The position numbers and the translations under genes are program-made. The notes beneath the pieces are model-generated. The model was given only the letters and a program-made list of their open reading frames with translations, had not been told where the DNA came from and did not search any database. A stretch of 64,000 nucleotides of DNA. Source: Bilabrum cf. latius. Taxonomy: Eukaryota. The stretch lies in NCBI GenBank assembly GCA_965178125.1, contig OZ237754.1:310001-374000 (forward strand), in the 5' to 3' direction. Positions 2,033-41,963 of this stretch are shown piece by piece (position 1 is the stretch's first letter; every line of letters starts with the position of its first letter).

Positions 2033-2214
2033 CTCTTCCAAAGCGATCGAGCAGGTTTGTTTGAACCCTACCATGAGTTGCAATGGAAGCATAGTTGACC
2101 TCACTCGGTACCTTCCCCGTTCGCCCTGAAATCAATTTTGGTGATCCGATCCCACTGATCACACTGGCTGCTCCACCACTTCTCGATGCGTCCATAAATT
2201 CGCATTTTCTATCT

Positions 2215-14897: not shown

Positions 14898-15155
14898 TGG
14901 CACGCGTTAGGCAGCGTGGGTCATTGCTGGTCTATGCGAGTTGCTTTGAGGTCCAAACCATACACTACGTTGTCCCGTTCAATCCACGAAAGAAGTCTGC
15001 CACTGCCATTGCTGTCAACAGGACCACGGAGATCTCAAGCAGCAAGTGGCCCTCATAACATACCTGCTGGCTGCCCGTGCTTGAATTTGCAACGCTGTAA
15101 TGACCAGAATTGCTCGCTCCATCTAAGCAAGCGCCCACCTCATTTTCATTTCTCA

Positions 15156-16078
15156 TTATTCCCCCGTCACGATGCCCCTCACGAATGCCTCGATGCCCTC
15201 CGGCCCATCGGAGCGCAGGGACCGGATCACGGCGCTTCCCATCACAGCCCCGTCCGCAAACCCGCTCACGCTCTTGATGTGCTCGTGCGTGCTGAGCCCG
15301 AAGCCCACTGCCAGCGGCAAATCCTCCCCTACTGCCTTCCTCACCCTGCCCATGAATGCTCCCAGGCCGGGGGGCAGCTCCGTGCGAGCGCCCGTCACTC
15401 CCGTCACAGACACGCAGTAGATGTATCCCTTGGCGCACTTGGCGACGGTTGCCAGTCTGGCATCCGTGCTGGTGGGCGCAACGAGGGGCACGTAGGCGAG
15501 CGAGTGCTTGTCGCACGCCTCGAGGAATTTCGTGGCTTCCTCGGGCGGCACGTCGACTACGATCATCCCGTCGATGCCAGCTACGAGCAAAAGCGAGTTC
15601 GAGTACGGTGAAGCTATACATAAATCCATGCTGCAAGGTGATTGTAAATGGCACCGACGCTGCTCTTCTCACCCTTTGCGCAATCCTCTCCAAGCTGGGC
15701 CTCGCCGTAACGCAGGAATGGATTCGCATACCCCATCAAAATCACTGGCTTGGTCAAACCTTTTGCCCTGGCCTCTTCCACGTACTTCAGGGTCTTTTTC
15801 AATGTGATTCCATTCTTCAGAGCGACCATGTTCGCTGCTTGGATCGTCCCGCCATCCGCCAGTGGATCAGAGAAAGGCATTCCAAGCTCAATCACATCTG
15901 CCCCGCCCTTCTCCATTCCAAGGAGCACATCTACAGTGCTGTCTAGCTTAGGGAAGCCTGCTGTCACGTACGGAATGAACGCTGTTCGTCCTTCCGCCTT
16001 GCAGTCAGCGAACTACTTCAGTACCCTCGCAGATCCTGCGAGAGCATCCTATCCTGCGGCAGCACCTGATCCTGCCAT
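15156..16078 (-). CDS. trpA: Tryptophan synthase alpha subunit (stand-alone)
   Basis: join(16078-15673,15580-15156) with a 92-nt GTGAG...TAG intron. Motifs AFIPYVTAGFP, IELGMPFSDPLADGGTIQ, LMGYANP, VVDVPPEE, YCVSVTGVTG, AVGFGLS, DGAVMGSA. Two TAGs near the N-terminus; ends TAA followed by TGA. Confidence 0.95.
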
Positions 16079-21094: not shown

Positions 21095-21219
21095 GCGTGG
21101 AAAGTGTGGTGCTATTGTATTGCGTGCGCACGTCGAATGAATGGCTTCGCTGCTTCAAGAGCATTTATTGCACCACGTGTAGCAAGCAGCAGGTACCGCG
21201 TCGATTGCCAGCCTATCTA

Positions 21220-24057
21220 TCACGTGCTGCGCTCTCCCTCCCCGCCAAGATTTGCGCCATCATCCGCACCAACACTGCCAGCGGCCCCGCTGCTGCCATC
21301 CTCGGCTGCACCTTTGCGGGCACTGCTGCACCTCGCGAGGGCGGCCGTGATGGAGGACGCCCCCTTTGCCTGCCTGCTCGATCCAAAGAGGGCCACATTG
21401 AGCACTTTGGCAACCCTTGAGCCGAACTGCACCGCGCGCTTTGGCAAAAGCGCGCTTTCGCCTAGCCCGAGCTGGACTGCGACCAAACGCAGCACCCGCT
21501 TGTCTCCCTGACCCCGCTCTAAGCCGGGGTCCAATATCCTATCCACAGGGATGCGTGACAGCGCACCCAGCACGCCCTCGTCCAGGAATGGCAGCCGGAG
21601 CTCCCTCCCGTGGTCGCTTACAATCCTGTCGTCTCTGCCGAGGTTTCGGGCCCACAGCCGATCCACATCCATAGATAGCTCTGACGCGACCGCGGCCCAG
21701 CCCCCTCTCGACACCGCAGTTGCATGCCTGCCGTACCCGCCGCACAGCTCGTCTGCCCCCAGGCCAGAGAACACAACGCGAGCCGAAGACACAAATCGAC
21801 TATCTTCTATCGCATCGCGCACAGCAGCCACGGGACATGATTCAACAAGCCCGGCCGATGAGAGGTCTGCAGCAGTTGCCAGTCTCCCTGTTCCCGAGGC
21901 GGCGTGCCATATCGCCATACCAAGAGACAGGTCCATGTTGGTACATCTTGGCCACAATAAGGTCGCCACGTGAAGCATGGTCTTCTTGACGTCGTCAGGC
22001 GAAACGTTAACAAGGACGAGTCGCCACTCTCTCTCCGGGCACGACCGTCGGAGCTGCATCCACGATTGCAGTGCGGTTTTCCTGTCCGGAGACTGATGCT
22101 CTGGATAGTCAAAGCAGGCCGACAAAAGGTCAATTGGCTCCCCCGGTGGAAGGAAATCGTGTGCAAGCCTGGCAACAATGGTGCAATCGAGGCCCCCGCT
22201 AAACAGGACGGCCAAGCGAGAGGGTGCAAGTGATCTTGCAGCTGCTGCAGCAACAGTTTCCGACTCTGCACTGGCCGCGATGGGTGCTGCAGCTCTTTCC
22301 AAAGGTGACGCGCCTCCCAGATCTGGGGATGCGGCGACAGAGTCTCTCGGCAGCTCTGGCCCAATGGGCGGCCTAGCCACTTCGGAAGCGGAGGGCTCCG
22401 TGTGACTAGGGTCGGGGCAGTGTGTGACGCGCCGCTGCACAGCCAGTCGAAGGGCTACCATCGTTGCGTCTCTAGCACGGATCCAATCACCGGCCAACGC
22501 CAGTGAGTCGTTCTCACAAGCACCTGGGCTTGGGCTGCTGGTTTCACAAGCACCTGGGCCTGTACTGCTGGCTTCACTGCTACGGCCAGACGATACCGTT
22601 GCTACATCGGTTGTGCTCACAGATGCTGGTTTGAGTGCTCTGCCTTTGCTCACTGCGGCTCCCCCCTTACCCCTTTGGTCAAGTCTCACAATGTCTGGTC
22701 TTGCCACGGATGCACGTGTAGGTCGCCACAGCGGCAGCCCGCGCCGCAGATCGACACAACAGAAGCCAAGCACAACAGCCGCGGTCTCCCTACCTACATC
22801 TGATACGCTTGAATGCTTCTGGTCCTCGAGTGACAGTGGCAATGCAACGTCCCCGGGGTCTGTCACCAAGCCAGGTTCTCTGCTTGCTGCAGGACCCAGT
22901 GCTTTACCCCAATCGATGCTCATGGCTCTGACTGAGAGCGGTGGCTTGCAAATGCTGCTGTCTCCGAGCGCAGCCCAGCAATGACCAGCGCCAGCACCAT
23001 TACCATCACCAGCACCAGCACCAGCACCAGCACCAGCACCAGCACCAGCACCAGCACCAGCACCAGCACCAGCACCAGCACCAGCACCAGCACCAGCACC
23101 AGCACCAGCACCAGCACCAGCACCAGCACCAGCACCAGCACCAGCACCAGCACCAGCACCAGCACCATCACAAGCACCTGCACCTGCACCTGCACCTGCA
23201 CCTGCACCTGCACCTGCATCTGCACCTGCACCTGCACCTGCACCCGCACCAGCATCAGCACCAGCACCAGCACCAGCACCAGCACCAGCCCACCCGCAAG
23301 CCATCACCCAACCAGCAGGGATCTCCTGCCAACGCCCCCCGCATGCCACCACATCCAAGTTGAGGTCTCTTGCATCTGTCATGAGTGGTTCTTCGATCAA
23401 TGCTGCTGTTGGTACAACATCCCCTGCCCCGCCGAGGCCCCCACATACAGAGCTTGCTGCCGGGGCGGGGTGCTGGACGCTGCTTGACTGGCGGGTTATC
23501 CTCGCGATTCCTGACAGCTCTGGAAGAACGACGCTAGATACTATGACTGGTTCGTGTGTCTCGTGACCGGCGCGTGGCAATCGAAGCAGCAGGCTCCTTC
23601 TGCCAACTGCACCCCGCCCAAACACAACGCTGCTGGTAGCGGTGTCTACCACGCAGGCTGCCCAGGGACCAATAACCGAGTCTAGAGCCTGGGCGATAGC
23701 CAAGTGCGACTCTTTCTGTGATGCTGCCTCCGTAAGGCGCAGTTCAACGCTGTCTCGAATCGCAGCAGTATCACTTGTTTCGGTTCCGAGGCCCCAGGCT
23801 TCGCCGTTCCAGGCAATTCCACCGCTACGCGACATGAACCCCAGAGGCTATGCGGATATCACCCCGGTCTTGGAACGTTGCATGGAGAGCACTGATGCTA
23901 TCATAACTACTCGGGTACCATTCGCAAGCTTCCATTCACGAAAAGACATGTTGTCCGGTCCTCGCGAGCGCAACGCGCGGCGGGCCTGCTCGCATACGTT
24001 TTTGACCAAATCGTCTGGGCAGTCCTGAGGAATAATCAATAAAGTCACTCCGCACAT
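21220..24057 (-). CDS. ASNSD1: Asparagine synthetase domain-containing protein 1 (Ntn domain plus Asn synthase domain)
   Basis: Starts MCG at 24057, with LRSRGPD. One TAG (23848-23850) joins it to WNGEAWG, GRRSLL, AVLFSGGLDC, SPDRKTA, GLGADELCGGYGRH, RNLGRDDR, RLPFLDE, GDKRVLR, PKRAVQFGSR. TGA stop. Confidence 0.9.
22985..23289. repeat. Hexanucleotide microsatellite (GCACCA)n/(GCACCT)n encoding poly-(Gly-Ala) inside ASNSD1
   Basis: About 50 tandem 6-mers seen directly; in frame on the minus strand. Confidence 0.95.
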
Positions 24058-27595: not shown

Positions 27596-27720
27596 AGATA
27601 ATGCCATGCAATCAAGGTTTAAGTATGCACGCTACGGACCGACTCGGCCGCCACGTGGCGCCACAGCTAGCATGCCCTTGCGGGACGTTTCCCACCCAGA
27701 TCGGATACTCCTTGCTACGA

Positions 27721-30036
27721 TCACGAACTGCCGCTGCCAGAAGCTGCCTCGCTGGTTCCGTCATACGCGTGCACCACTCTCGCGAACACGTCCTCCAGCG
27801 TCACTTGCCCCACGCCCCAGTCCGTGATACCACCCTCCCTAGCATTGTCGTGCATCAGCCTAAACATGTTCGACAAGGGCATGCCACCCGTGGGGACCAG
27901 GAAGCTCGCATACCCTTGGTAGTCTTGGTCGATGCTAGCTGTAGGGAACAGCCTAGCGATCAGACCAACCGCTCGCTCCCTCCCCAGCGCCTTCCCACCT
28001 CGCTCGGGAACCCCTGCAGCCGCTGCACCTGCAACAACTGCGCCGCCAGAGTCGCGCTCGTAGTTCACAAAGAGTCTGTAGCCTTGTCCGAATCGGTTGC
28101 GCAGCGATTGTGGGGTGCCAATCACGCGCACCCGCCCATCGCAGACTATAGCAATCCTGTCGCTCAGCAGCTCGCACTCGTCCATCGAGTGCGACGTCAG
28201 CACCATGCTTCTAGGCCTGCCAGTGTGGGACGGGAGGCGTTTGGCCCGCTCAATGACTCTCCACAGGCGCCGCCTAGAGGCGAGATCCAGCCCCGCAGTG
28301 GGCTCGTCCAGGTAGGAAAGCACCGACCTGCCCGTGAGGCTGATGGCGGTGGAGAGCCGACGGCGCATGCCTCCGGACAGCTGGCCCGCTGCGCGTTTGC
28401 GCACAGCAGCAAGGTCAACTGCCTCCAACTGGTTGTCAACTTCCACCTGCAGTCCCTCAGGCTCCACGCCCTTGAGCCTGGCATAGAAAAACAGGTGATC
28501 CTCTACGGACAGGTCGTCCCACAGCACGCTGTGCTACGGGCAAAGCCCAAGGGACAGGTGAACGCCTGTCGGGTCGCGATCGACGTGGTGGCCACCCACC
28601 CACGCATCGCCAGCAGTGGCTGGGATTGTCGCCGAGATGCAAGCAAACGAGGTGGACTTTCCGCACCCATTAGGCCCGACCATTCCCAGCACCTCCCCAG
28701 GATTCAAGGCGTAGTTCATATCCTGCACCGCCACTTTCAGGCCCATTGGAGTGTCGAATTCTTTGCGAAGAGCCCTGACAATCAGAGGTGCGGGCGCGGC
28801 GGCAGCGTGCCGATCCAGCGCACTGCCCGTCAGGCCGTCAAGGCCGGCTCGGACAGGTGCGGTGCCATCGTCCCCAAAACCCAACAGCTTCGCGATCCGT
28901 CTCCTCTCCTCTGTGACCATCGGGTCCTCTCCCCTCGCCTGCTCGAACGCATGCTGCTCGCTGCCAGCGTGGGGAAACAATCCAAGGAGTGGACGCCTGT
29001 CGTTCACCCGCAGCGGAGCAGAGTCACCGAGACACTACGCAGGTGACGGGGGCACCAGGCCACCCTATGAGGAGGCCAGGCCTGGCATGCCCCCCAGACC
29101 CACGCTGCCAACTGAGCCATCGTTGGTGTGGCTATTGGACAGCAGAGATTTTCTCATGTCGTCGGCAGAGTCCGAGTTTCCGGCTTCCTTCTCACCCTTG
29201 GAGCCTCCCGCAGAATTTCTTGCTCCGGAAGAGCGGCAGCTGCAGGTGCAATTGTTCTCCAGCCATCCGTGAGGCAAGCACCAGCGAAAGCAGCAGCAGG
29301 GGTGGGACGGCACCTGGTGCTCACCCGGGAGCACCTGTTCCAGGTAGACAGCCGCAGCCATGTAAATCACTGCATCGATGAATAACCATGCAATCACCCA
29401 GCGCATCTCTGTGCCGGCTGCGGTCGCCTGCGCAAAGTTGTCAAGGCAGTTTCCCTTAAAGATACACGCAAAGTTCATCAGGTAGATCCCCCTGCAGAGC
29501 GCAAAAATCGGCATAACATGCAGCCACGAGGGCATCCGAGCTCCGTACGAGAACGGCGGCACGTTGCCGTAGATTCCGTCTGCCAGAACTGTTCCTATCA
29601 GCGTGCCGAGCAATGCAACAGCATATCCAACGATGGTTGCCACGCGCCTGGAGCCCAGCAGTGATGCCACAAAGGCTGCCAGCGAGGTCAGCGCCATGCC
29701 CCAGCCGACAAAGAATAGCAGAAGCAGCAGCGGACTTGTGGAGAGGAAGAAACTGAAACGCAGGATCGCTCCGACGGCCCAGAAGAACCCCACCACACAG
29801 AGGTACATGCCCATGTTCAGCAGGTAGTTCGTCCCGAAGTACTCGTAGTCCCGCATGCCCATGGCGCGCTGCAGCTGCAAGAGTCCCGTCTCGCGCTCCA
29901 GAACGGTCGTGAAGCTAAATAGAGGGAGCTGCAGGGTCAGCCCGATGGGGTACAGGAACGCGCCGAACACCTGTACCAGGCTCTCCAGGTTCTGCACGAT
30001 ACGCTCCGGCATGGTTGCAACCACCTTGACGGACAA
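27721..30036 (-). CDS. ABCA: ABCA transporter, 3' part (TMD2 plus NBD2), separated from the 5' part by a mobile element
   Basis: One frame with TAGs at 29065, 29035 and 28534. VLERETGL...AMGM, Walker A GPNGCGKST, Q-loop LGLCP(TAG)HSVLW, LSGGMRRRLS, YLDEPTAGLD, LTSHSMDECE, TLEDVF. TGA 27721-27723. Confidence 0.92.
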
Positions 30037-30189
30037 AAACTGACATTGATTTGTACGTTACATCGAATCAGTTCTAGAACCTCCGGTTAGGGTTGCTAGA
30101 AAATGCGAGGGCGTGCTGGGCCCCGGCTCCTCGGGCGGTTGACCACCCGTGGCGCCACAAGGGGACCCGGCTGCTGGTGCAGCCTGCGC
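30035..30189. repeat. Split direct repeat B2 (155 bp)
   Basis: Identical by eye to 30915-31069. Confidence 0.95.
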
Positions 30190-30744
30190 GCCTGACGCGG
30201 GTAAGCAAAGTGCCTACCCACCGGAGGTATCATTCAATCATACAATGTAAGCAGATGCGCTCGAAGATCTAAACACCCAGCCAGTGGCTGGGAAAAGTCA
30301 CCCGAGCTCGGTGCCGCCCTCTCAGTGAGGTGACGACCCCTACATCCAAATCCCTCAGAGTGTCTGCATGGCCTGGACTATAAAGACCGAAAATGTTCCG
30401 GAAGAAAACTATCCATGCCTGGGTGCCGCCCTCTCGTTGAGATGACGACCCCGTCTTCTGCTGACTGTCCCGCGGTGTGATTTGTTGGCTGAGGATGCCG
30501 ACAAACTCACGCGCGATCCTGGGTGTCGCCCTTCGGTGTCCGGTGGCGACCCCTGTACCTCTGGGTGTTGAGTCATGATCCCTGCCCTGCAAGATATGCG
30601 CTATCGTTGCGCCAAATCGCAGGCCCTGGGCTGTCCTCGCGCTCCAAATTGCTGTGGTACGCGTGGGCTCTTTGCCCCATCATTCAGGGACTTGAGTCAT
30701 GACACTCCTCTCTGCACTTCCTCTACACTTTGCGGGTGGGCGGG

Positions 30745-30842
30745 AAAACTTTTGCAAGCTGACTCAGAACTACACTACATTGTAGTACGTGTCTTCTTGA
30801 GCACTGCCGAGATCAGTATCTTCGGCGTACCCTCGGGAAGAT
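30745..30842. repeat. Split direct repeat A2 (98 bp)
   Basis: Identical by eye to 36760-36857. Confidence 0.95.
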
Positions 30843-30914
30843 GAGTCGGCCTTCACGCAAATCAATCCCAGTTTCTACAGTTCCGGTCTTACTGATTGTA
30901 ACCCCAGACCTGCT

Positions 30915-31069
30915 AAAAACTGACATTGATTTGTACGTTACATCGAATCAGTTCTAGAACCTCCGGTTAGGGTTGCTAGAAAATGCGAGGGCGTGCTGGG
31001 CCCCGGCTCCTCGGGCGGTTGACCACCCGTGGCGCCACAAGGGGACCCGGCTGCTGGTGCAGCCTGCGC
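30915..31069. repeat. Split direct repeat B1 (155 bp)
   Basis: Identical by eye to 30035-30189 (aaaaactgacattg...gcagcctgcgc). Confidence 0.95.
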
Positions 31070-31574
31070 CGTACTGACCCGCAGATTTGGCCACCTGTGG
31101 CCACTGCGGCTTGCCGCCCTACGCATACTGACCTGTGGGTCACATTAATCCGCTCCTTGGATATAGTCGCCACGATGGCTGCTGTCCGCTTTGCTTGCCA
31201 CTAGTGGTAGTCATCTGTCGGTGGTGACCACCGTGGAGCCACTTGCATCGACTGTTGTGTTGAACTGTCAGGTTATGGTGGCTGATCTGCAGCATTCACC
31301 GTACCACCGATGAGCCTAGTCGTTGATCGCAACCAGAGATGTCAATTATATACGAAATCCTCGCCGAGCTTAATACTGGTGCCTAAGATGCATTCAAGTA
31401 CACAGGTTGCTGCGGGAGTGATCATCGCTTTCGTCGTTGTTAGTGCTATCCATTCGACAGGACCTCCCAGTCTAGCTTACAAATGGTGCATATGGTGCTG
31501 CTCATTTTGTCCTGTCGTTGCTAGTGCTGTTCATCCGGAACTTACAAAACTCTGTTGTCGAGCTGCGTCCCTGC

Positions 31575-32161
31575 AAATGGTGCAATTGCTCACACAGGCT
31601 GCCTTGGGGATGGGCATCTCCTCCTTGGCAGCTAGTGCTGTTACTATGACAAGACCTCCTGGTCGAGCTGTTCAATGGTGTACATGGTGCAATTGCTCAC
31701 ACAGGCTGCCTTGGGGGTGGTCATCTCCTCCTTGGCAGCTAGTGCTGTCGCTATGACAAGACCTCCTGGTCGAGCTGTTCAATGGTGTACATGGTGCAAT
31801 TGCTCACACAGGCTGCCTTGGGGGTTGTCATCTCCTCCTTGGCAGCTAGTGCTGTCGCTATGACAAGACCTTCTGGTCGAGCTGTTCAATGGTGTACATG
31901 GTGCAATTGCTCACACAGGCTGCCTTGGGGATGGTCATCTCCTCCTTGGCAGCTAGTGCTGTCGCTATGACAAGACCTCCTGGTCGAGCTGTCCAATGGT
32001 GCACATGGTGCAATTGCTCACACAGGCTGCCTTGGGGGTGGTCATCTCCTCCTTGGCGGCTAGTGCTGTCGCTATGACAAGACCTTCTGGTCGAGCTGTT
32101 TCATGGTGCACATGGTGCAATTGCTCACACAGGCTGCCTTGGGGGTGGTCATCTCCTCCTT
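31575..32161. repeat. 107-bp tandem repeat array, block 1 (~5.5 units; more diverged copies at ~31430-31575)
   Basis: atggtgcaattgctcacacaggctgcc... recurs every 107 nt (ORF starts at 31675, 31782, 31889, 31996, 32103). Confidence 0.95.
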
Positions 32162-32163
32162 TG

Positions 32164-32978
32164 CATGTGGTCGTAGTCCCGAGAAATCCACGACGATCCT
32201 GGCCTATTCACTTGGTACTATGCGTCGCTGCATGCCCACGCCGGGGCTGAGCTTCCAAGCGTACTTCCGGACCAGCAAGGCTCTCGGCATATCTGATGTT
32301 GCTGGTGTCGATGTAACTCGAATGAATCCTGCCTCAACCTGCTTGCGAATCTCAGTAAACAGGGCTGATTGCGTTGAGGTACCTTCGTGCCAGTCGGCGT
32401 CCCCACCGTCTCGTGGAGCCTTGATCGCTGCGTCAGGCTCGAGGTACCAGTGGAAAGGCGCGCCATACTTGCGTAAGACGTGCAACACCTCCGCCACCGG
32501 ACAACACTGCGTGGTGCAGATTGAGAATGTAGCTGGCTGCATCCAATACAGTTTGTCCCCACTGTGCACTTGCATGCTCCTCAGTGCGCTGCTCTGCGAG
32601 TTCATGCCGCTACGTTGCTCCACAATAGCCCTCTCGGTGTGCTCTGCTCTGGCTCCCTGACGGGCTACGAGAGTTCGCTCCTGGGTGGCCTGCTTTACAG
32701 CGGACGACTAATTCCTCGAAGCCTCCTCCCGGGTCCCCCCAAGGCTAACTCTAGCATCAAGGGATGGTCCCGTGGATTTGACAGGCAGTATGAGTCCCCC
32801 TTCGCCGTGACCTAGTCGGACCTCTCCTTCTAGTGCGAACGTCGGAGGCACTCTGCCGCCTTGCTGCTGCTACGTCGGTGCTGATGTTCGTGCTGCTTCC
32901 TACTACCGCGGCTGCCCTGTGACCTGGCCCTTCTGCGCCTCGCGCTGGGGGTGCTGTCGTCGCGCCGCTAGTAGATGT
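32164..32978 (-). pseudogene. Truncated retroelement pol fragment ending just after the early RT motif
   Basis: About 270 codons open apart from 5 TAGs. VLHVLRKYGAPFHW...SALFTEIRKQVEAGFIRV...LLVRK...E(TAG)ARIVVDFSGL resembles the RT N-terminus (EIxxxxxxGxI; RxxxDxxxLN). No YxDD, RNase H or recombinase follows. Confidence 0.65.
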
Positions 32979-33327
32979 TCTCCTCCTTGGCCGCCAGTGC
33001 TGTCGCTATGACAAGACCTTCTGGTCGAGCTGTTCAATGGTGCATATGGTGCAATTGCTCACACAGGCTGCATTGGGGATGGTCATCTCCTCCTTGGCAG
33101 CTAGTGCTGTCGCTATGACAAGACATCCTGGTCGAGCTGTTTCATGGTGCATATGGTGCAATTGCTCACACAGGCTGCCTTGGGGGTGGTCATCGCCTCC
33201 TTGGCAGCTAGTGCTGTCGCTATGACAAGACCTCCTGGTCGAGCTGTTTCATGGTGCATATGGTGCAATTGCTCACACAGGCTGCCTTGGGGGTGGTCAT
33301 CTCCTCCTTGGCGGCTAGTGATGTCGC
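32979..33327. repeat. 107-bp tandem repeat array, block 2 (~3.2 units)
   Basis: Same unit as block 1 (ORF starts at 33037, 33144, 33251). Confidence 0.95.
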
Positions 33328-33360
33328 GGTTGAGCATCGTAACACAACCTTAAGTTATCC

Positions 33361-36300
33361 AATGGACGACTCGCAGCAACCCACCCAGGCTCGCCAAGCT
33401 GCCCACAGCAGCAAAGGCGGCCAGTGGCAGGCGCATTCAGGCGCCATCACAGACAAAGGCAAGCGGACGTCAAATGGACGACGCGCAGCAACCCACCCAG
33501 GCTCGCCAAGCTGCCCACAGCAGCAAAGGCGGCCAGTGGCAGGCGCATCAAGGCGCCATCACAGACAAAAGCAAGCGGACGTCAAATGGACGACGCGCAG
33601 CAACCCACCCAGGCTCGCCAAGCTGCCCACAGCAGCGAAGGCGGCCAGTGGCAGGCGCATCAAGGCGCCATCACAGACAAAGGCAAGCGGACGTCAAATG
33701 GACGACGCGCAGCAACCCACCCAGGCTCGCCAAGCTGCCCACAGCAGCAAAGGCGGCCAGTGGCAGGCGCATCAAGGCGCCATCACAGACAAAGGCAAGC
33801 GGACGTCAAATGGACGACGCGCAGCAACCCACCCAGGCTCGCCAAGCTGCCCACAGCAGCAAGGTGGCCAGTGGCAGGCGCATCAAGGCGCCATCACAGA
33901 CAAAGGCAAGCGGACGTCAAATGGACGATGCGCAGCAACCCACCCAGGCTCGCCAAGCTGCGCACAGCAGCGAAGGCGTCCAGTGGCAGGCGCATCAAGG
34001 CGCCATCACAGACAAAGGCAAGCGGACGTCAAATGGACGACGCGCAGCAACCCACCCAGGCTCGCCAAGCTGCGCACAGCAGCAAAGGCGGCCAGTGGCA
34101 GGCGCAGTCAGGCGCCATCACAGACAAAGGCAAGCGGACGTCAAATGGACGACGCGCAGCAACCCACCCAGGCTCGCCAAGCTGCGCACAGCAGCGAAGG
34201 CGTCCAGTGGCAGGCGCATTCAGGCGCCATCACAGACAAAGGCAAGCGGACGTCAAATGGACGATGCGCAGCAACCCACCCAGGCTCGCCAAGCTGCCCA
34301 CAGCAGCAAAGGTGGCCAGTGGCAGGCGCAGTCAGGCGCCATCACAGACAAAGGCAAGCGGACGTCATATGGACGACGCGCAGCAACCCACCCAGGCTCG
34401 CCAAGCTGCGCACAGCAGCAAAGGTGGCCAATGGCAGACGCTTCAAGGCGCCATCACAGACAAAGGCAAGCGGACGTCAAATGGACGACGCGCAGCAACC
34501 CACCCAGGCTCGCCAAGCTGCGCACAGCAGCAAAGGCGGTCTGTGGCAGGCGCAGTCAGGCGCCATCACAGACAAAGGCAAGCGGACGTCAAATGGACGA
34601 CGCGCAGCAACCCACCCAGGCTCGCCAAGCTGCCCACAGCAGCAAAGGCGTCCAGTGGCAGGCGCATTCAGGCGCCATCACAGACAAAGGCAAGCGGACG
34701 TCAAATGGACGATGCGCAGCAACCCACCCAGGCTCGCCAAGCTGCCCACAGCAGCAAAGGTGGCCAGTGGCAGGCGCAGTCAGGCGCCATCACAGACAAA
34801 GGCAAGCGGACGTCAAATGGACGACGCGCAGCAACCCACCCAGACTCGCCAAGCTGCGCACAGCAGCAAGGTGGCCAATGGCAGACGCTTCAAGGCGCCA
34901 TCACAGACAAAGGCAAGCGGACGTCAAATGGACGACGCGCAGCAACCCACCCAGGCTCGCCAAGCTGCCCACAGCAGCAAAGGCGGCCAGTGGCAGGCGC
35001 ATCAAGGCGCCATCATAGACAAAGGCAAGCGGACGCCAAATGGACGACGCGCAGCAACCCACCCAGGCTCGCCAAGCTGCCCACAGCAGCAAAGGCGGCC
35101 AATGGCAGGCGCATCAAGGCGCCATCATTGACAAAGGCAAGCGGACGTCAAATGGACGACGCGCAGCAACCCACCCAGGCTCGCCAAGCTGCGCACAGCA
35201 GCAAAGGCGTCCAGTGGCAGGCGCAGTCAGGCGCCATCCCAAACTAAGGCAAGCGGACGTCAAATGGACGACGCGCAGCAACCCACCCAGGCTCGCCAAG
35301 CTGCCCACAGCAGCAAAGGCGGCCAGTGGCAGGCGCATCAAGGCGCCATCACAGACAAAGGCAAGCGGACGTCAAATGGACGACGCGCAGCAACCCACCC
35401 AGGCTCGCCAAGCTGCCCACAGCAGCAAGGCGGCCAGCGGCAGGCGCATCAAGGCGCCATCACAGACAAAGGCAAGCGGACGCCAAATGGACAACGCGCA
35501 GCAACCCACCCAGGCTCGCCAAGCTGCCCACAGCAGCAAAGGCGGCCAGTGGCAGGCGCATCAAGGCGCCATCATAGACAAAGGCAAGCGGACGTCAAAT
35601 GGACGACGCGCAGCAACCCACCCAGGCTCGCCAAGCTGCCCACAGCAGCAAAGGCGGCCAGTGGCAGGCGCATCAAGGCGCCATCACAGACAAAGGCAAG
35701 CGGACGTCAAATGGACGACGCGCAGCAACCCACCCAGGCTCGCCAAGCTGCCCACAGCAGCAAAGGTGGCCAGTGGCAGGCGCAGTCAGGCGCCATCACA
35801 GACAAAGGCAAGCGGACGTCAAGTGGACGACGCGCAGCAACCCACCCAGGCTCGCCAAGCTGCCCACAGCAGCAAGGCGGCCAGTGGCAGGCGCATCAAG
35901 GCGCCATCACAGACAAAGGCAAGCGGACGTCAAATGGACGACGCGCAGCAACCCACCCAGGCTCGCCAAGCTGCCCACAGCAGCAAGGTGGCCAGTGGCA
36001 GGCGCATCAAGGCGCCATCACAGACAAAGGCAAGCGGACGTCAAATGGACGACGCGCAGCAACCCACCCAGGCTCGCCAAGCTGCCCACAGCAGCAAAGG
36101 CGGCCAGTGGCAGGCGCATCAAGGCGCCATCAAAGAAGAAACAAGCGGACGTCAAATGGACGACGCGCAGCAACCCACCCAGGCTCGCCAAGCTGCCCAC
36201 AGCAGCAAGGCGGCCAGCGGCAGGCGCATCAAGGCGCCATCACAGACAAAAGCAAGCGGACGTCAAATGGACAACGCGCAGCAACCCACCCAGGCTCGCC

Positions 36301-36447
36301 AAGCTGCCCACAGCAGCAAAGGCGGCCAGTGGCAGGCGCATCAAGGCGCCATCACAGACAAAGGCAAGCGGACGTCAAATGGACGACGCGCAGCAACCCA
36401 CCCAGGCTCGCCAAGCTGCCCACAGCAGCAAGGTGGCCAGTGGCAGG
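33361..36447. repeat. 111-112-bp tandem repeat array (~27-28 units)
   Basis: aatggacgacgcgcagcaacccacccaggctcgccaagctg...ggcaagcggacgtca repeated head to tail with few substitutions and no unique spacers. Confidence 0.97.
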
Positions 36448-36759
36448 CCCCGTTTGCGACACAATGTTAATAATAATCTTGATTTACGATTCACTAGCGG
36501 CCTTGCTATGGTTTTTGGGATGCAATACAAGCATAAGTCGAGTTGCGCAGTGTTGTGCCTTGACGTGCCGTGTGCGTTATGAAGCAGCGCCGGGTGAAAT
36601 GCACTCGCAGCAGACCTTTGGCAGCAACTATGCAATAAGTGCATATACCAGCGTGCGTTTGACATGGGTTATGTTTACTTTTTCCTTATAGGGATCAACC
36701 TGAGACGAACACATCCCGATTGCCCTTGGAGCCAGCCGATAGGCCTCTCGAAAACTTTT

Positions 36760-36857
36760 AAAACTTTTGCAAGCTGACTCAGAACTACACTACATTGTAG
36801 TACGTGTCTTCTTGAGCACTGCCGAGATCAGTATCTTCGGCGTACCCTCGGGAAGAT
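36760..36857. repeat. Split direct repeat A1 (98 bp)
   Basis: Identical by eye to 30745-30842 (aaaacttttgcaagctgac...ccctcgggaagat). Confidence 0.95.
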
Positions 36858-39800
36858 CGAGAGCGGTAAGGTTTCCGCCTGGGTACGGGATCGGAGTGGG
36901 TGCCGGGTGGAACCCAGTGCCGCGCTTGACGCCAGCCTACTTCTCCAGCGCAGCCGTGAGCAACTCGTGCAGTGCCACTCGTGCAGCCTCTGGCTGCACT
37001 GCCTGGTCGCGGACGAACTTCGGCATGCCGTGGAACCCAATGCGGGTGAAATTGTTGGGACGGTGGTACTTGGTGATCTGCTCATCGTTCACAGCCAGTG
37101 TCCAGCTCGCCCTGACGACCTTGTCGGAAGCCTGTAGCTCATCGATTTCCACAGTGCCATCCGGCGTGACGTAGGCGGGGCACTGGAAGGCCTGGTCGCA
37201 GGGCGGCTTGTTGTCTAGATGTATTAGCGAGGCGTTGTTCAGCACATTGAGGTCAACCATGAGCTCGCGCTGCATGGCCCGGGGACTCTCCCGCATCAGA
37301 AAGTACGGCACGGACACGTTGGTGCCGTTGCTCATCCTCCACGTAGTCTGAGGAATCTAGCCCAGAAATCCCGTGCCGTTGCCGTACTGGTCCCGCGTCC
37401 CGACGCTCTGGGCCAGATTGGATCCGGGCCCACCCGCTACGCTGATCAAGAAGAACTCAAGCCCGTCCACCTGTTGCGACCTGTTGCCCGGTGTGAGATG
37501 CCTGTGGTGGTGCTGATGCCCCCCACTGTAGTCATCATTCGTCATGTAATAGTCGTCATCTCTCATGTCGTCATCGTCTCCGTAGTCATCGTTGTCGAAA
37601 GAAGGAGCGGGCGAGGGGAACGGGCTTGCAGTTGGGGTCGCTTGCGGCCCGAATGCGGCTGCATTACCGCCTGATTCGCTGTACAATTTCTGTTCTACGC
37701 TTGGACTAAGCACCAAGATGCTGCCATCTTCCAGGTATAGCCACGGGGCGGATTCCGAATCAGAGGCTGCCTGCATTCCGACTTTTCCAGCCTCAGTAGT
37801 ATCCACGAAATCCACGAACGACTCATCACCCCAGGCTGACTGGCCGGCGCCCTCAGAGTAGTCGCTAGCAGTCTCCCACTCGGATGACTCGCCGAACCCG
37901 TGCTCCCATTCTGCCGCGAGCAGGTTCTGGTTCAGCGGGCTTAGCACGCTGGGCGCCAGCTTGCTCTGGGTGGCTCCGAATTCAGCCTTGACGATCACCT
38001 GCAGCAGCGCCAGCAGTCCCATCACGATAAGCGGCGTAATGACCTGACAGGCACACAGGCATTGCTGCCGGCCGATCAAAGTGAGGTACTTGATAGCCAG
38101 GGCTCGACAGCCGTATGAACGCACTGCGTTATCTCCCTTGGTAGCGGCATCTCGGTGCTTCGAGCCGGACATGATATCATCTTGTGAGTCGCCAGCGCCA
38201 GACATCGGCCCTTCCGAACCCAAGCTCTCGGTTTGAGATACCGCAGACGCCGATCCGGCTCCGAGCAAGGAGTCACCCAACTCGCTGTCATCCCTCTGCC
38301 TGTTGGGCTCGCCCGCTGCATCCACCGCTGCATCTGCTCGTCGCATCACCTGCAGGAACACCTCCTCCAGGGAACACATGCTCACGCCCCACTCGCGCAC
38401 TGCGCCGTGCAAGCTACCAGACTAGGCGTCTAGCTTCCCTGCAGGCAATGCAGCGGCAGCCCTAGACTGCGTCGAGGCGGTGGTGCTGGTGTCACCTTCG
38501 CTCCAGGTCTTTGTCTCTTCTCCAGAGGCGATGGATCCACCCCTAGGTCCGTTCTGAATCGCCGGAGCCCCCAACCTGCTGGTACGCCCTGCATCACCCT
38601 CTTCGTCCGTCTGCAGCTCAGTTTCAACCCAGCGCAGCAGCAGGGGCAACTCTTCAACACAACTGAACGGCACAACGAGGGAAACATTGCCGGCGTCTAG
38701 CTCTGCTACCTTCGCGGCGGCCAAGCGCTGCTGCACCGCGGCAGCTACGAGCGGGGCAGCGCTCGGCGTCGTGCTCATGGTAATGCGATAGCCGGAGCCC
38801 TCTCTTTGCTTGAGACTGAGGGCATTGCCTACTGCCCACAGCCTTCCGTGCGCCATGATCAGCACCCGATCACTGAGAGTTTCGGCCTCTAGAAGATCGT
38901 GAGAGGTAAGAATGACGCAGCGGCCGCGCTTGAGGCGCTGCAGCAAGCGCCACACGTCTCTCTTGTTGACAGGGTCAAGCCCTGCAGAGCACTCATCCGC
39001 GATCAGCACAGCCGGGTCGCCAATGCAGGCGATGGCGAGGGAGAGGCGACGCTTCATGCCCCCGCTGTAGTTGCCAGCCGGACGGTCGGCAGCACTCGTG
39101 AGGGACACCTCAGCCAGGCGCTTCTCCACCTCGCGCTCCACGTCCTCAGTGCTTCCCTTGACGCCCTTAATCCGGGCAAATATCCACATGTGCTCACGTG
39201 CCGTGAGCTCAGGCCACAGAATGTCGTGCTGCTGGCAGACGCCGAGCTACTTGCGGATATCGTCGAGGTGGTCCTCCACGTCCATCCCTGCTACCTCTGC
39301 CCTGCCTGTTGTGGGGAGGTAGAGCCCCAGCAGGATGTGAAGCAGAGATGACTTCCCCGCTCCATTGGCCCCTGCTAGAGCCACGCATTCGCCCTTGCGC
39401 GCAAGGAAAGACACTCCTTGCACTGCATGCACGTCACCACCACCACCACCAGCTCCTCCACGCTTAGAGGTCGACGAAACCTGCCTCTCGCCTTCATCTC
39501 CTCCGCCAGATCCACCCGTACCGCACCCCATCCACAGCCAGCTTCCAAGCCTGCCGCAGAGCGAGCACACGTCGTACTTCCTGTACACCTTGGTGAGCGC
39601 CAATACTCTCACAGCAACATCATGGGAGCCGCTTGCGCCGCCCAGCTCCGACCCGCCCTCCGTTGGCACGACCCACGCCTCCTCGGCTGCTTCGTCCACG
39701 CCCGGGTCACGCAGTGCCTCCACCTCCAGCTCCTCCCTCCGCTCGCGCCACCCCGCCGCTGCTCGGCCGGTGATGAGCTGCAACTCATCTCCTGTGGTCC

Positions 39801-41963
39801 CTGCGTTGATGCTTGAGGCTGACAAGAGTCCAACCGCATCCCCAGAAGCCGGCACAGCTGCAGGCAACAGCGAGGCGGGCCCGGCACGGCCCTTGCCTAG
39901 CACAGAGTCGCCGGTCGGCGCCCTGGATCGCCTGGTTGCGCGAGCCTTGGAAGATCGCCGCTTGTAATCAGCACGAGCGCGCTCAAGCGCCACGCTTGGA
40001 TCGTCTTCAGCGCAAAAACACGTTGCCGCGCGGCCGCACGATGAGGTTTGCTTTCTGCCGCAGCACCGCCCCTGCCACCCCACCCCAACGCAGCAGCAGG
40101 GGTGCTGCGGAGAACCGTGCTGCCCAGGCATGATGCTGTCAAGATAAAGGGCCAGAGACGCAAACAGGACCATGTCGCCCAGCATGAGCCATATGCTCTC
40201 GCTGGGGGGCGGGTTGTTGATGTGGAAGCCGAAAACGTTCAGCTCCCTGGACTTGTGCAGGTCGGACCAGTGGAACCCTGGGCCAGGGATGACCTTTCCT
40301 GCCCTTGCATCGATGGTGCTAGTGGCCATCTGCGCGATATCGAAGAAGCTCTTGGAAAAATTGAAGGCAGGGTACAGCTGCATCACGTACCGGATGAGCT
40401 TGATCCACGTCTTGATTGGGTGCATCCACAGGCAGTCGATGAGCCCCCCGTACCCCGCGCTAAGGATGCCCTGGAACACGAAGGACAGGAGCACGGCAGC
40501 CAGCCCGACCGTCTGTGCCAGCTTGGCCGAGTCCACGAGGGTGGAGAGCAGGAACGCCAGGGAGACCTGAGCCATCCCGAAGATGACAAACATAACAAAG
40601 TTGGCGCCGAAGCTGGACCTAGAAAAGTACTCGAAGCCCGCCGCGTACCCCGATGCAATCAGCACGAGCGATGTCAGTGCGCAGTAGGCCAGCCCCACGA
40701 ATGCCCACGATCCCCAGAATGCCGCGTTCCGCATGCCCATGGTCCTCATACCCAGCCGCAGCCTAGCCTCCTTCTCCCCGACAATCTCGACCAGCAGCAC
40801 GTAGAAAATGATGAGCGCGGGGAGGATGTACCACTGGCCACCCTGCTGCGCCACCACATTGAATGCGTGGATTCTCGGCTTTGGCTTAGGAAAGTGCCTC
40901 CACGAGAGGTCGATGGCTGCCTCTCGCTGCACCGTGCCGCTGTTCGAGGGGTCCCCCGCCACGGCCAGCTGTGCGATGTCTAGAGCCCTCTTCAGCTCTA
41001 GCGTGTGTGCAGACTCAAAGAAGGGGTATCGGGTCAGGCTGATGTTGTAGTAGATCATGTAGGTATCCAGCGGCCGCTCCAGCCAGAGGTACTCGCCTAG
41101 AAACAGCACTACCTGCGAGTTGAGTTGGAAGAGGAGCAGGGAGCGCAGAGAGAATGACAGATGCAATGCACGTGTTAGATATGACGATAGGCAAGGAAGG
41201 AAGCCGTGGGCATTATAATCGAAAGGAGCGGCCCAAATGGTGCGAGCATCATGCGCCAACTCACGTTCTGGGTCCGGTTGGGCCGGCTCAGCATGTACTC
41301 AGTCACAGTGCGGTTGTCGCGCATGAAGTCGCACGGAAGGCAGGGAACGCCCAACCCACCAGGTGAAAAGCCACTGGGGATCGCGAGCCGTAGCGGGCCT
41401 TCGCTTGGGTTGAGCTGCTTCCCGGTTTCCTGGACGTTGCTCGAGGAGCCGCTGCGGGGATCCCCCAGGATCCGGCGCGTTAGCTCCATCGCCGTCTGGC
41501 GCGGCTCGGTGGATTCCATGAGCTCGCATTTCGGCCAACTGCCATTCACTTGTGGTGCAGTAGCATTGCACCAGGACCACGGGTCCGTTTGGGATAGCAC
41601 GCCAGGGACTTGCTGTGGTGCAGTGTCGCTCAACAGGAACCCAGCGAGGGCGTCGCTATCCATCAGGGCGCGAACCCCAGGCGTAGCTGGCGCGTACACA
41701 AGGGTCTCGCATTCGCTTAAATGGGCTCCAATTGTACACTCTGGAAGCTGACCAACCTCAGATGCTGCTGGGTACGGCGTCTCCGAGTTCAGCAGCACGT
41801 CTGACAGCGCCTGAAAGCCCACTAAAAGTATTGTCACGACAACCGGGGAAAGGAGGAGCGAGCACGACTGCCTCCAATTTCGTACCTGCAATATCCAATT
41901 CTTGTATAGAAGAACGCCCAGCTACCTGCAGCAGGAGGATCCCTCCAGTGACACGTCACCCAT
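36856..41963 (-). CDS. ABCA: ABCA transporter, 5' part (TMD1, NBD1, second extracellular region)
   Basis: ATG 41963, R(TAG)LGVLLYKNW, intron 41264-41113, IVGEKEARLR..MRTMGM, GANGAGKSS, LGVCQQHDILW, YSGGMKRRLS, DECSAGLD, LTSHDLLEAE, SLEEVF. Five TAGs. Reconstructed full gene is about 2420 aa. Confidence 0.92.

What the first reader, a model, noticed from the sequence alone, without database searches (positions are those of the whole stretch)
28534..28536. TAG occupies the invariant Q-loop glutamine of ABCA NBD2
The minus strand reads LGLCP-TAG-HSVLW. The ABCA consensus is GxCPQxxxLW, and NBD1 of the same gene reads LGVCQQHDILW. This functionally constrained site identifies the amino acid as Gln rather than Leu or Glu.
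Basis: partly seen in the sequence, partly recalled or inferred. Interest (0 to 1): 0.85.

Follow-up and report, generated by a model that had tools for sequence, protein, structure and literature searches.

The report
TAG read as glutamine, genome-wide
The stop-like TAG inside this lipid-transporter gene is real and is one of dozens in the window that this GC-rich protist evidently reads as glutamine, while TAA and TGA appear to remain stops, a rare kind of genetic code.

Summary
On the minus strand, 28536..28534 is TAG inside LGLCP-TAG-HSVLW. It falls on the Q-loop glutamine of the second ATP-binding domain of a full-length ABCA-type transporter.

It is not an error or a pseudogene. Across 18 coding segments (13,328 codons) I counted 65 in-frame TAG, 0 TAA and 0 TGA.

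Three lines of evidence point to glutamine:
- The Q-loop column holds Q in 12 of 15 aligned homologues.
- A second TAG, in an ASNSD1-like amidotransferase, falls on a column with Q in 101 of 102 homologues.
- A 74%-identical metagenomic relative has CAG at this exact site. It carries TAG at the NBD1 Q-loop, where the window has CAG. Of 16 orthologous TAG pairs, 6 pair with Gln.

TAA is probably still a stop. It is absent from coding interiors although CAA makes up 21% of Gln codons. It ends two genes, one of them followed directly by TGA. TGA ends 11.

The code is therefore the rare "UAG=Gln only" type, known from Iotanema spirale and two ciliates. Here it occurs in a GC-rich, intron-bearing lineage whose TrpA groups with stramenopiles (weak evidence).

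No suppressor tRNA, eRF1, RNA or peptide evidence could be obtained.

The parts
28534..28536 (-). In-frame TAG at the Q-loop glutamine of ABCA NBD2 (the finding)
   Evidence: The relative L001 has CAG here.
27724..30033 (-). ABCA exon 3 (TMD2 helices and NBD2). The 5' boundary is approximate.
   Evidence: Pfam ABC2_membrane_3 and ABC_tran. 73% identical to L001 residues 1681-2413. Walker A GPNGCGKS, signature LSGGMRRRLS, Walker B SYLDEPTAGLD and H-loop TSHSMDE are visible.
27721..27723 (-). TGA stop of the ABCA gene
   Evidence: Homology to ABCA3 and to L001 runs to within a few residues of it.
30034..36855 (-). Large ABCA intron of about 6.8 kb, both boundaries approximate. It is filled with 107-bp and 112-bp satellites and high-copy repeats.
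   Evidence: The relative and P0001 join ...GGNLTALDGSVKVVATMP across it. Satellites. Contig depth over 30.0-31.5 kb is 10-60 times that of the flanks. The splice sites were not confirmed by RNA.
36856..41112 (-). ABCA exon 2 (TMD1 helices, NBD1, TM7 and the extracellular domain 2 region). The 3' boundary is approximate.
   Evidence: Pfam ABC2_membrane_3 and ABC_tran. 67% identical to L001 residues 292-1679. Acceptor ...cgcag|GTAGTG at 41113/41112.
41113..41264 (-). ABCA intron 1 (152 nt, GTGAGT...CAG)
   Evidence: The alignment to L001 breaks here.
41265..41963 (-). ABCA exon 1, starting at ATG 41963..41961
   Evidence: 58% identical to L001 residues 18-238.
39229..39231 (-). CAG at the NBD1 Q-loop glutamine. 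The relative has TAG here.
   Evidence: window CAG at 39231, L001 TAG at 7781. (LGVCQ-TAG-HDILW in L001).
41922..41924 (-). In-frame TAG in ABCA exon 1; the relative has CAA (Gln)
39247..39249 (-). In-frame TAG in NBD1 (IRK-TAG-LGVCQQ); the relative has CAG (Gln)
38422..38424 (-). In-frame TAG in ABCA exon 2; opposite a gap in the relative
37357..37359 (-). In-frame TAG in ABCA exon 2; the relative has CAC (His)
36937..36939 (-). In-frame TAG in ABCA exon 2; the relative has GAA (Glu)
29065..29067 (-). In-frame TAG in the linker before NBD2; opposite a gap in the relative
29035..29037 (-). In-frame TAG in the linker before NBD2; the relative has ATG (Met)
23848..23850 (-). In-frame TAG in an ASNSD1-like glutamine amidotransferase, at the near-invariant Q of its Q-P motif
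   Evidence: Q in 101 of 102 homologues and P in 102 of 102 at the next column
16013..16051 (-). Two in-frame TAGs (16051 and 16015) between the TrpA start codon (16078) and the start of the conserved TrpA domain
15153..15158 (-). TrpA ends ...VTGE TAA TGA (tandem stops)
54210..54212 (+). TAA that ends the enkurin-domain ORF, 135 nt before the ATG and signal peptide of the next gene (GH113)

Best explanation
[quoted passage not shown] UGA is the main stop, and UAA very probably remains a stop. This is the NCBI table 15 pattern. The TAG at 28534-28536 is therefore simply the codon for the catalytic Q-loop glutamine of NBD2 in an intact, full-length ABCA transporter.

Shown: TAG is frequent and evenly spread inside conserved coding sequence. 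At constrained sites it aligns with Gln. A related species shares the trait.

Inferred, not shown: decoding by a tRNA-Gln with anticodon CUA, derived from tRNA-Gln(CUG) by one anticodon change. That anticodon pairs with UAG but not UAA. It would work together with an eRF1 that has lost UAG recognition.
For: 1. The TAG and its frame are in the sequence. They are unchanged in contigs of 3 runs of one sample, which may be the assembly's own source.

2. Treating TAG as sense raises the longest ORFs from 875 to 2033, 1896, 1646 and 1573 codons. Treating TAA as sense does not, although TAG is rarer in the window than TGA.

3. In 18 coding segments of 14 genes (13,328 codons) I counted 65 TAG, 0 TAA and 0 TGA. 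The six-frame background is 7.4 TAG, 3.5 TAA and 12.6 TGA per 1000 codons.

4. The Q-loop column holds Q in 12 of 15 homologues. The site aligns to the ABCA3 Q-loop in both NBDs.

5. The TAG at 23850 aligns to Q in 101 of 102 homologues.

6. Relative L001 has an ABCA ORF of 2413 codons with 12 TAG and 0 TAA. Its neighbouring gene has 1598 codons with 21 TAG and 0 TAA.

7. L001 has CAG where the window has the Q-loop TAG, and TAG at the NBD1 Q-loop where the window has CAG. Of 16 non-gap orthologous TAG pairs, 6 pair with Gln codons.

8. A public gene call on the relative (P0001) stops exactly at one of its in-frame TAGs.

9. On TAA: there are 0 among 65 reassigned codons although CAA is 21% of Gln codons. 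P is about 2e-7 if TAA were used as CAA is. In the relative it is 0 of 33 with CAA at 38%, P about 1.6e-7. All 8 TAAs in the long TGA-bounded ORFs lie at ORF margins, in introns, or between two genes.
Against: There is no direct evidence of translation: no RNA reads over the site and no peptides.

- Run X5, which behaves like RNA, does not genuinely cover 28534-28536.
- No tRNA gene of any kind was found in the window or in L001.
- No whole genome is held, so a tRNA(CUA) and eRF1 could not be examined.
- Ten of the 16 orthologous TAG pairs have non-Gln partners (E x3, R x3, H, M, I, T).
- The coding models are ORFs bounded by TGA, and some also by TAA. The zero TGA count is therefore by construction, and the zero TAA count is partly so. 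Only for the 8 long TGA-bounded ORFs was TAA free to appear.
- TAA as a terminator rests on two gene ends, and one of these is followed directly by TGA.
- Whether TAG also terminates some genes cannot be seen from ORFs.
Confidence: 0.92

Rival explanations
1. Both TAA and TAG encode Gln, as in the classical ciliate/dasycladacean/hexamitid code (NCBI table 6). TAA is simply rare because the genome is GC-rich.
For: The UAR=Gln code is by far the commonest variant (PMC5304391 and PMC11687900, passages read). GC3 is 67% in the long ORFs. TrpA's TAA is followed immediately by TGA, so that gene end does not discriminate.
Against: There are 0 TAA against 65 TAG in coding sequence, while CAA is 21% of CAA+CAG (P about 2e-7). 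In the relative it is 0 against 33 with CAA at 38%. The TAA at 54210 closes the enkurin ORF 135 nt before the next gene's ATG and signal peptide. Reading it as sense would fuse two unrelated genes.
Confidence: 0.06
2. The TAG is a nonsense mutation, a sequencing error or an assembly error in a dead or dying ABCA gene.
For: The gene carries a 6.8-kb repeat-filled interruption. Under the standard code it has 8 in-frame stops.
Against: The same thing occurs in 12 of the 14 genes modelled, with 65 TAGs but no TGA or TAA. The ABCA halves stay 67-73% identical to the relative, with all ATPase motifs intact. The relative has its own, different set of in-frame TAGs. Contigs of 3 runs agree at every base of 26500-30064.
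Confidence: 0.01
3. UAG has another or an ambiguous meaning: Glu or Leu, context-dependent stop and sense, or the genomic TAGs are edited to CAG in the mRNA.
For: UAG=Leu and UAR=Glu codes exist, as do codes in which a stop codon is both stop and sense (PMC5304391 and PMC11687900, passages read). Three of 16 ortholog partners are Glu. Two of 15 Q-loop rows have E. No RNA covers a TAG site.
Against: At the ASNSD1-like site, 0 of 102 homologues have E or L, against 101 Q. No ortholog partner is Leu. The two E rows are bacterial hydrolase fusions at 27% identity. From my own knowledge, not from any call, editing of about 5 sites per 1000 codons in nuclear mRNAs has no precedent I know of. Dual stop/sense use of TAG is not excluded.
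Confidence: 0.04

Closest known systems
Iotanema spirale (Fornicata) nuclear code: UAG=Gln, UAA and UGA stops (PMC5304391, passages read; PMC9161772, passages read)
   Same: UAG alone is reassigned to glutamine and UAA is kept as a stop. This corresponds to NCBI table 15. The expected mechanism is a tRNA-Gln(CUA) plus an altered eRF1.
   Different: Iotanema is an anaerobic metamonad known from a transcriptome, and UAA is its predominant stop. In the window TGA dominates: 11 of 13 gene ends. The genome is 60% GC. It encodes argininosuccinate lyase and TrpA. Its TrpA groups with stramenopile sequences.
Hartmannula sinica and Trochilia petrani (phyllopharyngean ciliates): UAG=Gln, UAA the preferred stop (PMC11687900, abstract and introduction read)
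   Same: A UAG-only reassignment to Gln with widespread sense usage. The meanings of UAA and UAG are uncoupled.
   Different: These are ciliates with UAA as the preferred stop. The window prefers TGA, has a 6.8-kb repeat-filled intron and is GC-rich. From my own knowledge, not from any call, these features are unlike a ciliate macronuclear genome.
UAR=Gln codes (NCBI table 6) of many ciliates, hexamitid diplomonads, oxymonads, some ulvophycean green algae and Amoeboaphelidium (PMC5304391 and PMC2984419, passages or abstract read)
   Same: A stop codon is reassigned to glutamine. In-frame TAG falls at conserved Gln sites.
   Different: In those codes TAA is also Gln. Here there are 0 TAA against 65 TAG in coding sequence.
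Human ABCA3, ABCA7, ABCA4 and ABCA1 lipid transporters (PDB 7w01, 8edw, 7lkp, 7tdt)
   Same: Best structural-database matches (E 1e-108 to 1e-94). Same TMD-NBD-TMD-NBD layout, and the same Q-loop context (C-P-Q).
   Different: Identity was not tabulated for these. The nearest named eukaryotic homologue is only 34% identical (Mastigella eilhardi). The substrate is unknown. NBD1 has C-Q-Q instead of C-P-Q.

Membership tests
Nuclear code with UAG=Gln only (NCBI table 15 type; Iotanema type) | In-frame UAG is common inside conserved coding sequences of many genes | tested here: met
   65 TAG in 13,328 codons, in 12 of the 14 genes modelled. 33 TAG in two genes of the relative.
Nuclear code with UAG=Gln only (NCBI table 15 type; Iotanema type) | UAG aligns with glutamine at conserved positions | tested here: met
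   Q-loop: Q in 12 of 15. ASNSD1-like site: Q in 101 of 102. Orthologous pairs: Gln in 6 of 16, the commonest partner. Only two strongly constrained sites were available.
Nuclear code with UAG=Gln only (NCBI table 15 type; Iotanema type) | UAA is not used as a sense codon | tested here: met
   0 TAA against 65 TAG, with CAA at 21% of Gln codons. 0 against 33 in the relative. All 8 TAAs in the long TGA-bounded ORFs are marginal, intronic or intergenic. The sample is one 64-kb window plus 12.9 kb.
Nuclear code with UAG=Gln only (NCBI table 15 type; Iotanema type) | UAA functions as a terminator | tested here: inconclusive
   2 of 13 gene ends are TAA. One is enkurin at 54210. The other is TrpA at 15158, which is followed directly by TGA. 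There are no transcript ends to confirm.
Nuclear code with UAG=Gln only (NCBI table 15 type; Iotanema type) | UAG is not used as a terminator | not testable with these tools
   ORF-based models cannot reveal a terminal TAG. This needs transcript 3' ends or ribosome profiling.
Nuclear code with UAG=Gln only (NCBI table 15 type; Iotanema type) | A tRNA with anticodon CUA and glutamine identity | tested here: inconclusive
   ARAGORN found 0 tRNA genes of any kind in the window and in L001. Rfam gave 0 hits. No whole genome is held.
Nuclear code with UAG=Gln only (NCBI table 15 type; Iotanema type) | eRF1 altered in its stop-codon recognition motifs | not testable with these tools
   eRF1 is not in the window, and no genome is held.
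UAR=Gln code (NCBI table 6) | TAA as well as TAG encodes Gln | tested here: not met
   0 in-frame TAA in 13,328 codons and 0 in 4,007 codons of the relative.
ABCA subfamily full transporter | One polypeptide with TMD1-NBD1-TMD2-NBD2, and ABCA proteins as the best matches | tested here: met
   ABC2_membrane_3 plus ABC_tran twice. Top PDB matches are ABCA3, ABCA7, ABCA4 and ABCA1. The relative encodes all four parts in one 2413-codon ORF. In the window, the join across the 6.8-kb intron is inferred, not shown by RNA.
ABCA subfamily full transporter | Intact ATPase motifs in NBD2 (Walker A, Q-loop, signature, Walker B, H-loop) | tested here: met
   GPNGCGKS, CP-(TAG)-H, LSGGMRRRLS, SYLDEPTAGLD and TSHSMDE are visible. 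The motif names are recalled; the alignment to ABCA3 is.

The most novel reading that the evidence does not exclude
This window comes from a GC-rich, stramenopile-like protist lineage, represented by at least two species about 25% divergent in protein sequence. That lineage independently evolved a nuclear code in which UAG alone means glutamine, UAA is kept as a stop, and UGA is the preferred terminator. It would be the first variant nuclear code in that part of the eukaryote tree. It would also be a further, non-ciliate break of the usual UAA/UAG coupling.
Probability: 0.4. Interest if true: 0.78.

Novelty: new member of a known kind. Interest (0 to 1): 0.68.

Why it matters
Codes in which UAG and UAA mean different things are rare. 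The papers I read list Iotanema spirale, Rhizaria sp. exLh and a few ciliates. Such codes are of special interest because they require a release factor that tells UAG from UAA.

A further case would be useful for three reasons:
- It lies in a GC-rich lineage that prefers UGA as its stop.
- It has a long-read genome assembly and a sequenced relative.
- The suppressor tRNA and eRF1 changes could therefore be tested directly, and the reassignment dated.

There is also a practical point. Any annotation of this genome or its relatives under the standard code will truncate most long genes. Public gene calls already stop at in-frame TAGs (P0001).

Tried and rejected
- tRNA and Rfam scans of the window and L001 found nothing.
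- Sequencing runs: no listed holder is on record as RNA. X5 behaves like RNA: it shows a GT..AG joint 26591->26732 and has no cover over most of ABCA. Its only cover near the site is a 37-nt piece (28499-28535) with unlike flanks, probably a paralogue. It gives no RNA evidence at the TAG.
- The N-terminus of the ASNSD1-like protein gave no PDB hit and no Pfam hit. The exhaustive HMMER search was needed.
For argininosuccinate lyase it returned only bacterial clusters, which says nothing on taxonomy.
- Argininosuccinate lyase homologues were mostly unnamed or bacterial, so uninformative on taxonomy.
- Exact splice sites of the 6.8-kb intron could not be fixed from sequence alone.
- There is no synteny between the window and L001 outside ABCA.
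- Literature searches for a stramenopile or labyrinthulomycete nuclear UAG reassignment found no report. Of the 4 papers holding the terms, none has a title or abstract opening on that subject; I did not open them. One search found 0 papers. Subscription journals are not covered, and supplements were not seen.
Full report
**1. The observation**

On the minus strand the window reads ctt ggg ctt tgc ccg TAG cac agc gtg ctg tgg. That is L G L C P * H S V L W, with TAG at 28536..28534. The ORFs on either side, 28534..29034 and 27721..28533, are in one frame and touch at this codon.

Read through, the 437-residue stretch matches Pfam ABC_tran (E 2.9e-24). Its best matches among solved structures are human ABCA3, ABCA7, ABCA4 and ABCA1 (E 1e-108 to 1e-94). 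In the printed alignments the codon lies opposite the Q of 'slglcpQhdilf' (ABCA3 NBD1) and of 'rigycpQfdall' (ABCA3 NBD2).

I aligned 15 homologues with the codon written as X. Twelve have Q in that column. Two have E; these are bacterial hydrolase-ABC fusions at 27% identity. One gene call (P0004) ends immediately before the column.

Logan contigs of three runs from one sample cover 26500-30064 without a single differing letter. These runs may be the source of the assembly, so this excludes an assembly slip but is not independent support.

**2. It is not a lesion in one gene**

The window is about 60% G+C and carries eukaryotic genes:
- an enkurin-domain protein, WW and ankyrin proteins
- argininosuccinate lyase and tryptophan synthase alpha (TrpA)
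- VIT1, NAD kinase, a TFIIS-like protein, a WD40 protein and two GH113 domains
- an ASNSD1-like asparagine-synthase-domain protein

GT..AG introns are visible.

Making TAG a sense codon raises the longest ORFs from 875 codons to 2033, 1896, 1646 and 1573. Making TAA sense changes almost nothing. This holds even though TAG (942 occurrences on both strands) is rarer than TGA (1606).

In eight long TGA-bounded ORFs there are 67 TAGs spread along their whole length and 8 TAAs. Every TAA lies in the first 76 codons, in what homology shows to be intron, or between two genes.

I then modelled 18 coding segments of 14 genes, 13,328 codons in all. They hold 65 TAG, 0 TAA and 0 TGA. The six-frame background is 7.4, 3.5 and 12.6 per 1000 codons. 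One caveat applies. The segments are ORFs bounded by TGA, and the smaller ones also by TAA. The TGA zero is therefore by construction, and the TAA zero is partly so.

**3. Which amino acid**

Three independent lines point to glutamine.

(a) The Q-loop site itself, described in section 1.

(b) A second constrained site. The ASNSD1-like gene (MCG... start at 24057, minus strand) has its only TAG at 23850. An exhaustive HMMER search of 1.84 billion representatives found 332 homologues of the N-terminal 219 residues. I aligned 102 of the best 150 listed, leaving out P0154 and the rows that do not span the site. At the TAG column, 101 have Q and 1 has V. The next column is P in all 102.

(c) A close relative. 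A metagenome contig (L001, 12,889 nt) encodes an ABCA that is 74% identical. Its ORF of 2413 codons has 12 TAG and no TAA. A divergently oriented 1598-codon LRR-containing ORF has 21 TAG and no TAA. The contig is therefore genomic DNA from a second species with the same habit.
- At the window's Q-loop TAG the relative has CAG.
- At the NBD1 Q-loop the relative has TAG (LGVCQ-TAG-HDILW) where the window has CAG.
- There are 20 in-frame TAGs in the two orthologues (8 in the window, 12 in the relative). Sixteen pair with a residue and 3 lie opposite gaps. The relative's first TAG (codon 15) lies upstream of the aligned block.
- The 16 partners are Gln x6, Glu x3, Arg x3, His, Met, Ile and Thr. 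Gln is the commonest partner. Most of the rest are one-step neighbours of CAG. None is Leu.
- A public gene call on the relative (P0001) ends exactly at one of its TAGs.

**4. TAA and TGA**

If TAA were glutamine too, it should appear roughly as often relative to TAG as CAA does relative to CAG.
- In the window CAA is 116 of 551 Gln codons (21%), yet TAA is 0 of 65. That gives P about 2e-7.
- In the relative CAA is 38%, yet TAA is 0 of 33. That gives P about 1.6e-7.

The TAA at 54210 closes the enkurin-domain ORF 135 nt before the ATG and signal-peptide-like start (MKPFYIISVVLFAMLALP...) of the next gene. Reading it as sense would fuse the two genes. TrpA ends ...VTGE TAA TGA, which does not discriminate.

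Of 13 gene ends, 11 are TGA and 2 are TAA. Whether any gene ends in TAG cannot be seen from ORFs.

I conclude that TAG is Gln and that TGA is the main stop. TAA is very probably a stop. This is the pattern of NCBI table 15.

**5. The gene**

Homology to the relative gives this model:

| Part | Coordinates (minus strand) |
|---|---|
| Start codon ATG | 41963 |
| Exon 1 | to 41265 |
| Intron 1 (152 nt, GTGAGT...CAG) | 41264-41113 |
| Exon 2 | 41112 to about 36856 |
| Intron 2 (about 6.8 kb) | about 36855 to 30034 |
| Exon 3 | about 30033 to 27724 |
| Stop TGA | 27723-27721 |

The large interval holds a 112-bp satellite (27.6 copies, 33361-36448) and two arrays of a 107-bp unit. It also holds sequence with 10-60 times the contig depth of its flanks. 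Its exact splice sites could not be fixed, and no RNA shows the join.

Both halves keep 67-73% identity to the relative. NBD2 shows intact Walker A, signature, Walker B and H-loop motifs (the motif names are recalled). The coding sequence holds 8 in-frame TAGs.

**6. Mechanism (inferred)**

The papers read argue that reading UAG while sparing UAA leaves one possible anticodon, CUA. It is one mutation away from tRNA-Gln(CUG). This change is expected to be accompanied by changes in eRF1 (PMC5304391 and PMC9161772, passages read; PMC11687900, abstract and introduction read).

I could not test either part. No tRNA gene of any kind lies in the window or in L001. Rfam gave no hit, and no whole genome is held.

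**7. Who is it**

TrpA here is a stand-alone protein. The top 120 hits to its second exon are mostly unnamed or bacterial. Among them the named eukaryotic rows are all stramenopiles:
- Thraustochytrium sp. LLF1b (60% identity)
- Cafeteria roenbergensis (61%)
- two oomycetes
- a diatom record, plus a fused form whose cluster includes Pseudo-nitzschia australis

I built a quick tree of 28 rows, chosen by me from those hits. The window falls in the 16-row clade that holds all of these (SH-aLRT 92), apart from the 12-row clade that holds all ten named bacterial rows. No plants, green algae or fungi were in the hit list to compete, so this is a weak pointer to a stramenopile-like organism.

The nearest named ABCA homologue is only 34% identical (Mastigella). 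The argininosuccinate lyase is closest to bacterial and unnamed sequences. The organism is not an anaerobic metamonad like Iotanema. From my own knowledge, not from any call, its GC content, large repeat-filled intron and preference for TGA are also unlike a ciliate macronuclear genome.

**8. Comparison and novelty**

UAG=Gln with UAA kept as a stop is known from three sources I read. These are Iotanema spirale (PMC5304391) and the ciliates Hartmannula sinica and Trochilia petrani (PMC11687900). UAA is the main stop in all three.

The present case is the same kind of code in a different setting. It is GC-rich, prefers TGA, and is shared by at least two species.

Two full-text searches for a stramenopile or labyrinthulomycete nuclear UAG reassignment found no report. 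One search listed 4 papers holding the terms; none has a title or abstract opening on the subject, and I did not open them. One search found 0 papers. The library omits most subscription journals, and I saw no supplements.

I therefore rate it a new member of a known kind. I put the odds that the lineage-level claim is unpublished at roughly 40%.

**9. Verdict**

The single codon matters as a clean diagnostic. It is an invariant catalytic glutamine written as TAG, with the reciprocal pattern in a relative. It points to a genome-wide and rare genetic code.

Noticed in passing
window 31577-32165, 32979-33327, 33361-36448: The large ABCA intron holds two arrays of a 107-bp repeat (5.5 and 3.3 copies) and a 112-bp satellite of 27.6 copies, which also reads as a 447-bp higher-order unit. 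On the plus strand this gives a spurious 1156-codon 'ORF'.
   Followed up: partly
window 30007-31500: Contig depth in all four runs is 10-60 times that of the neighbouring single-copy sequence, with variant copies and many loose ends. This looks like dispersed high-copy repeats, possibly a mobile element, inside the intron.
   Followed up: no
window 26591-26732: A 1692-nt contig of run X5 (a different organism label and study) skips 140 nt with GT..AG ends, just upstream of the WD40 ORF 26699-27592 and overlapping its first codons. X5 also leaves most of the ABCA gene uncovered. X5 therefore behaves like RNA, and this looks like a spliced intron.
   Followed up: partly
protein P0004 (Logan contig, 2007 nt): An ABCA-like gene call from an unrelated, lysine/asparagine-rich organism (41% identity) ends exactly at ...GVCP, one residue before the Q-loop glutamine. 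This suggests the same site is written with a stop-like codon there too. Its DNA could not be fetched.
   Followed up: no
window about 23005-23292 (minus strand): The ASNSD1-like gene carries an in-frame run of about 95 residues of alternating Ala-Gly, with a few Asp, Cys and Asn, encoded by a microsatellite between its amidotransferase and synthase domains.
   Followed up: no
window 15153-15158; 27715-27723; 21217-21222: Stop contexts: TrpA ends TAA TGA. The ABCA stop reads TGA TCG TAG. The ASNSD1-like stop reads TGA TAG. With TAG as sense, only the TrpA pair is a true tandem stop.
   Followed up: no
window 54345-55922 and 56076-57068: Two consecutive GH113-family (mannanase-like) ORFs lie on the plus strand, the first with a signal-peptide-like start. 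They may be one two-domain gene or a tandem duplicate.
   Followed up: no
window 2077-3807 and 15159-16078: Argininosuccinate lyase is 65-70% identical to bacterial sequences (Chloroflexota named among them) and to unnamed sequences. It has an N-terminal extension of about 55-100 residues rich in Arg, Ser and Ala. TrpA is stand-alone, not fused to TrpB.
   Followed up: partly
L001 3-4796 (minus strand): The relative's contig carries a divergently oriented 1598-codon ORF with leucine-rich repeats and long Ser/Arg-rich tracts. It has 21 in-frame TAGs, and it has no counterpart beside the window's ABCA gene.
   Followed up: no
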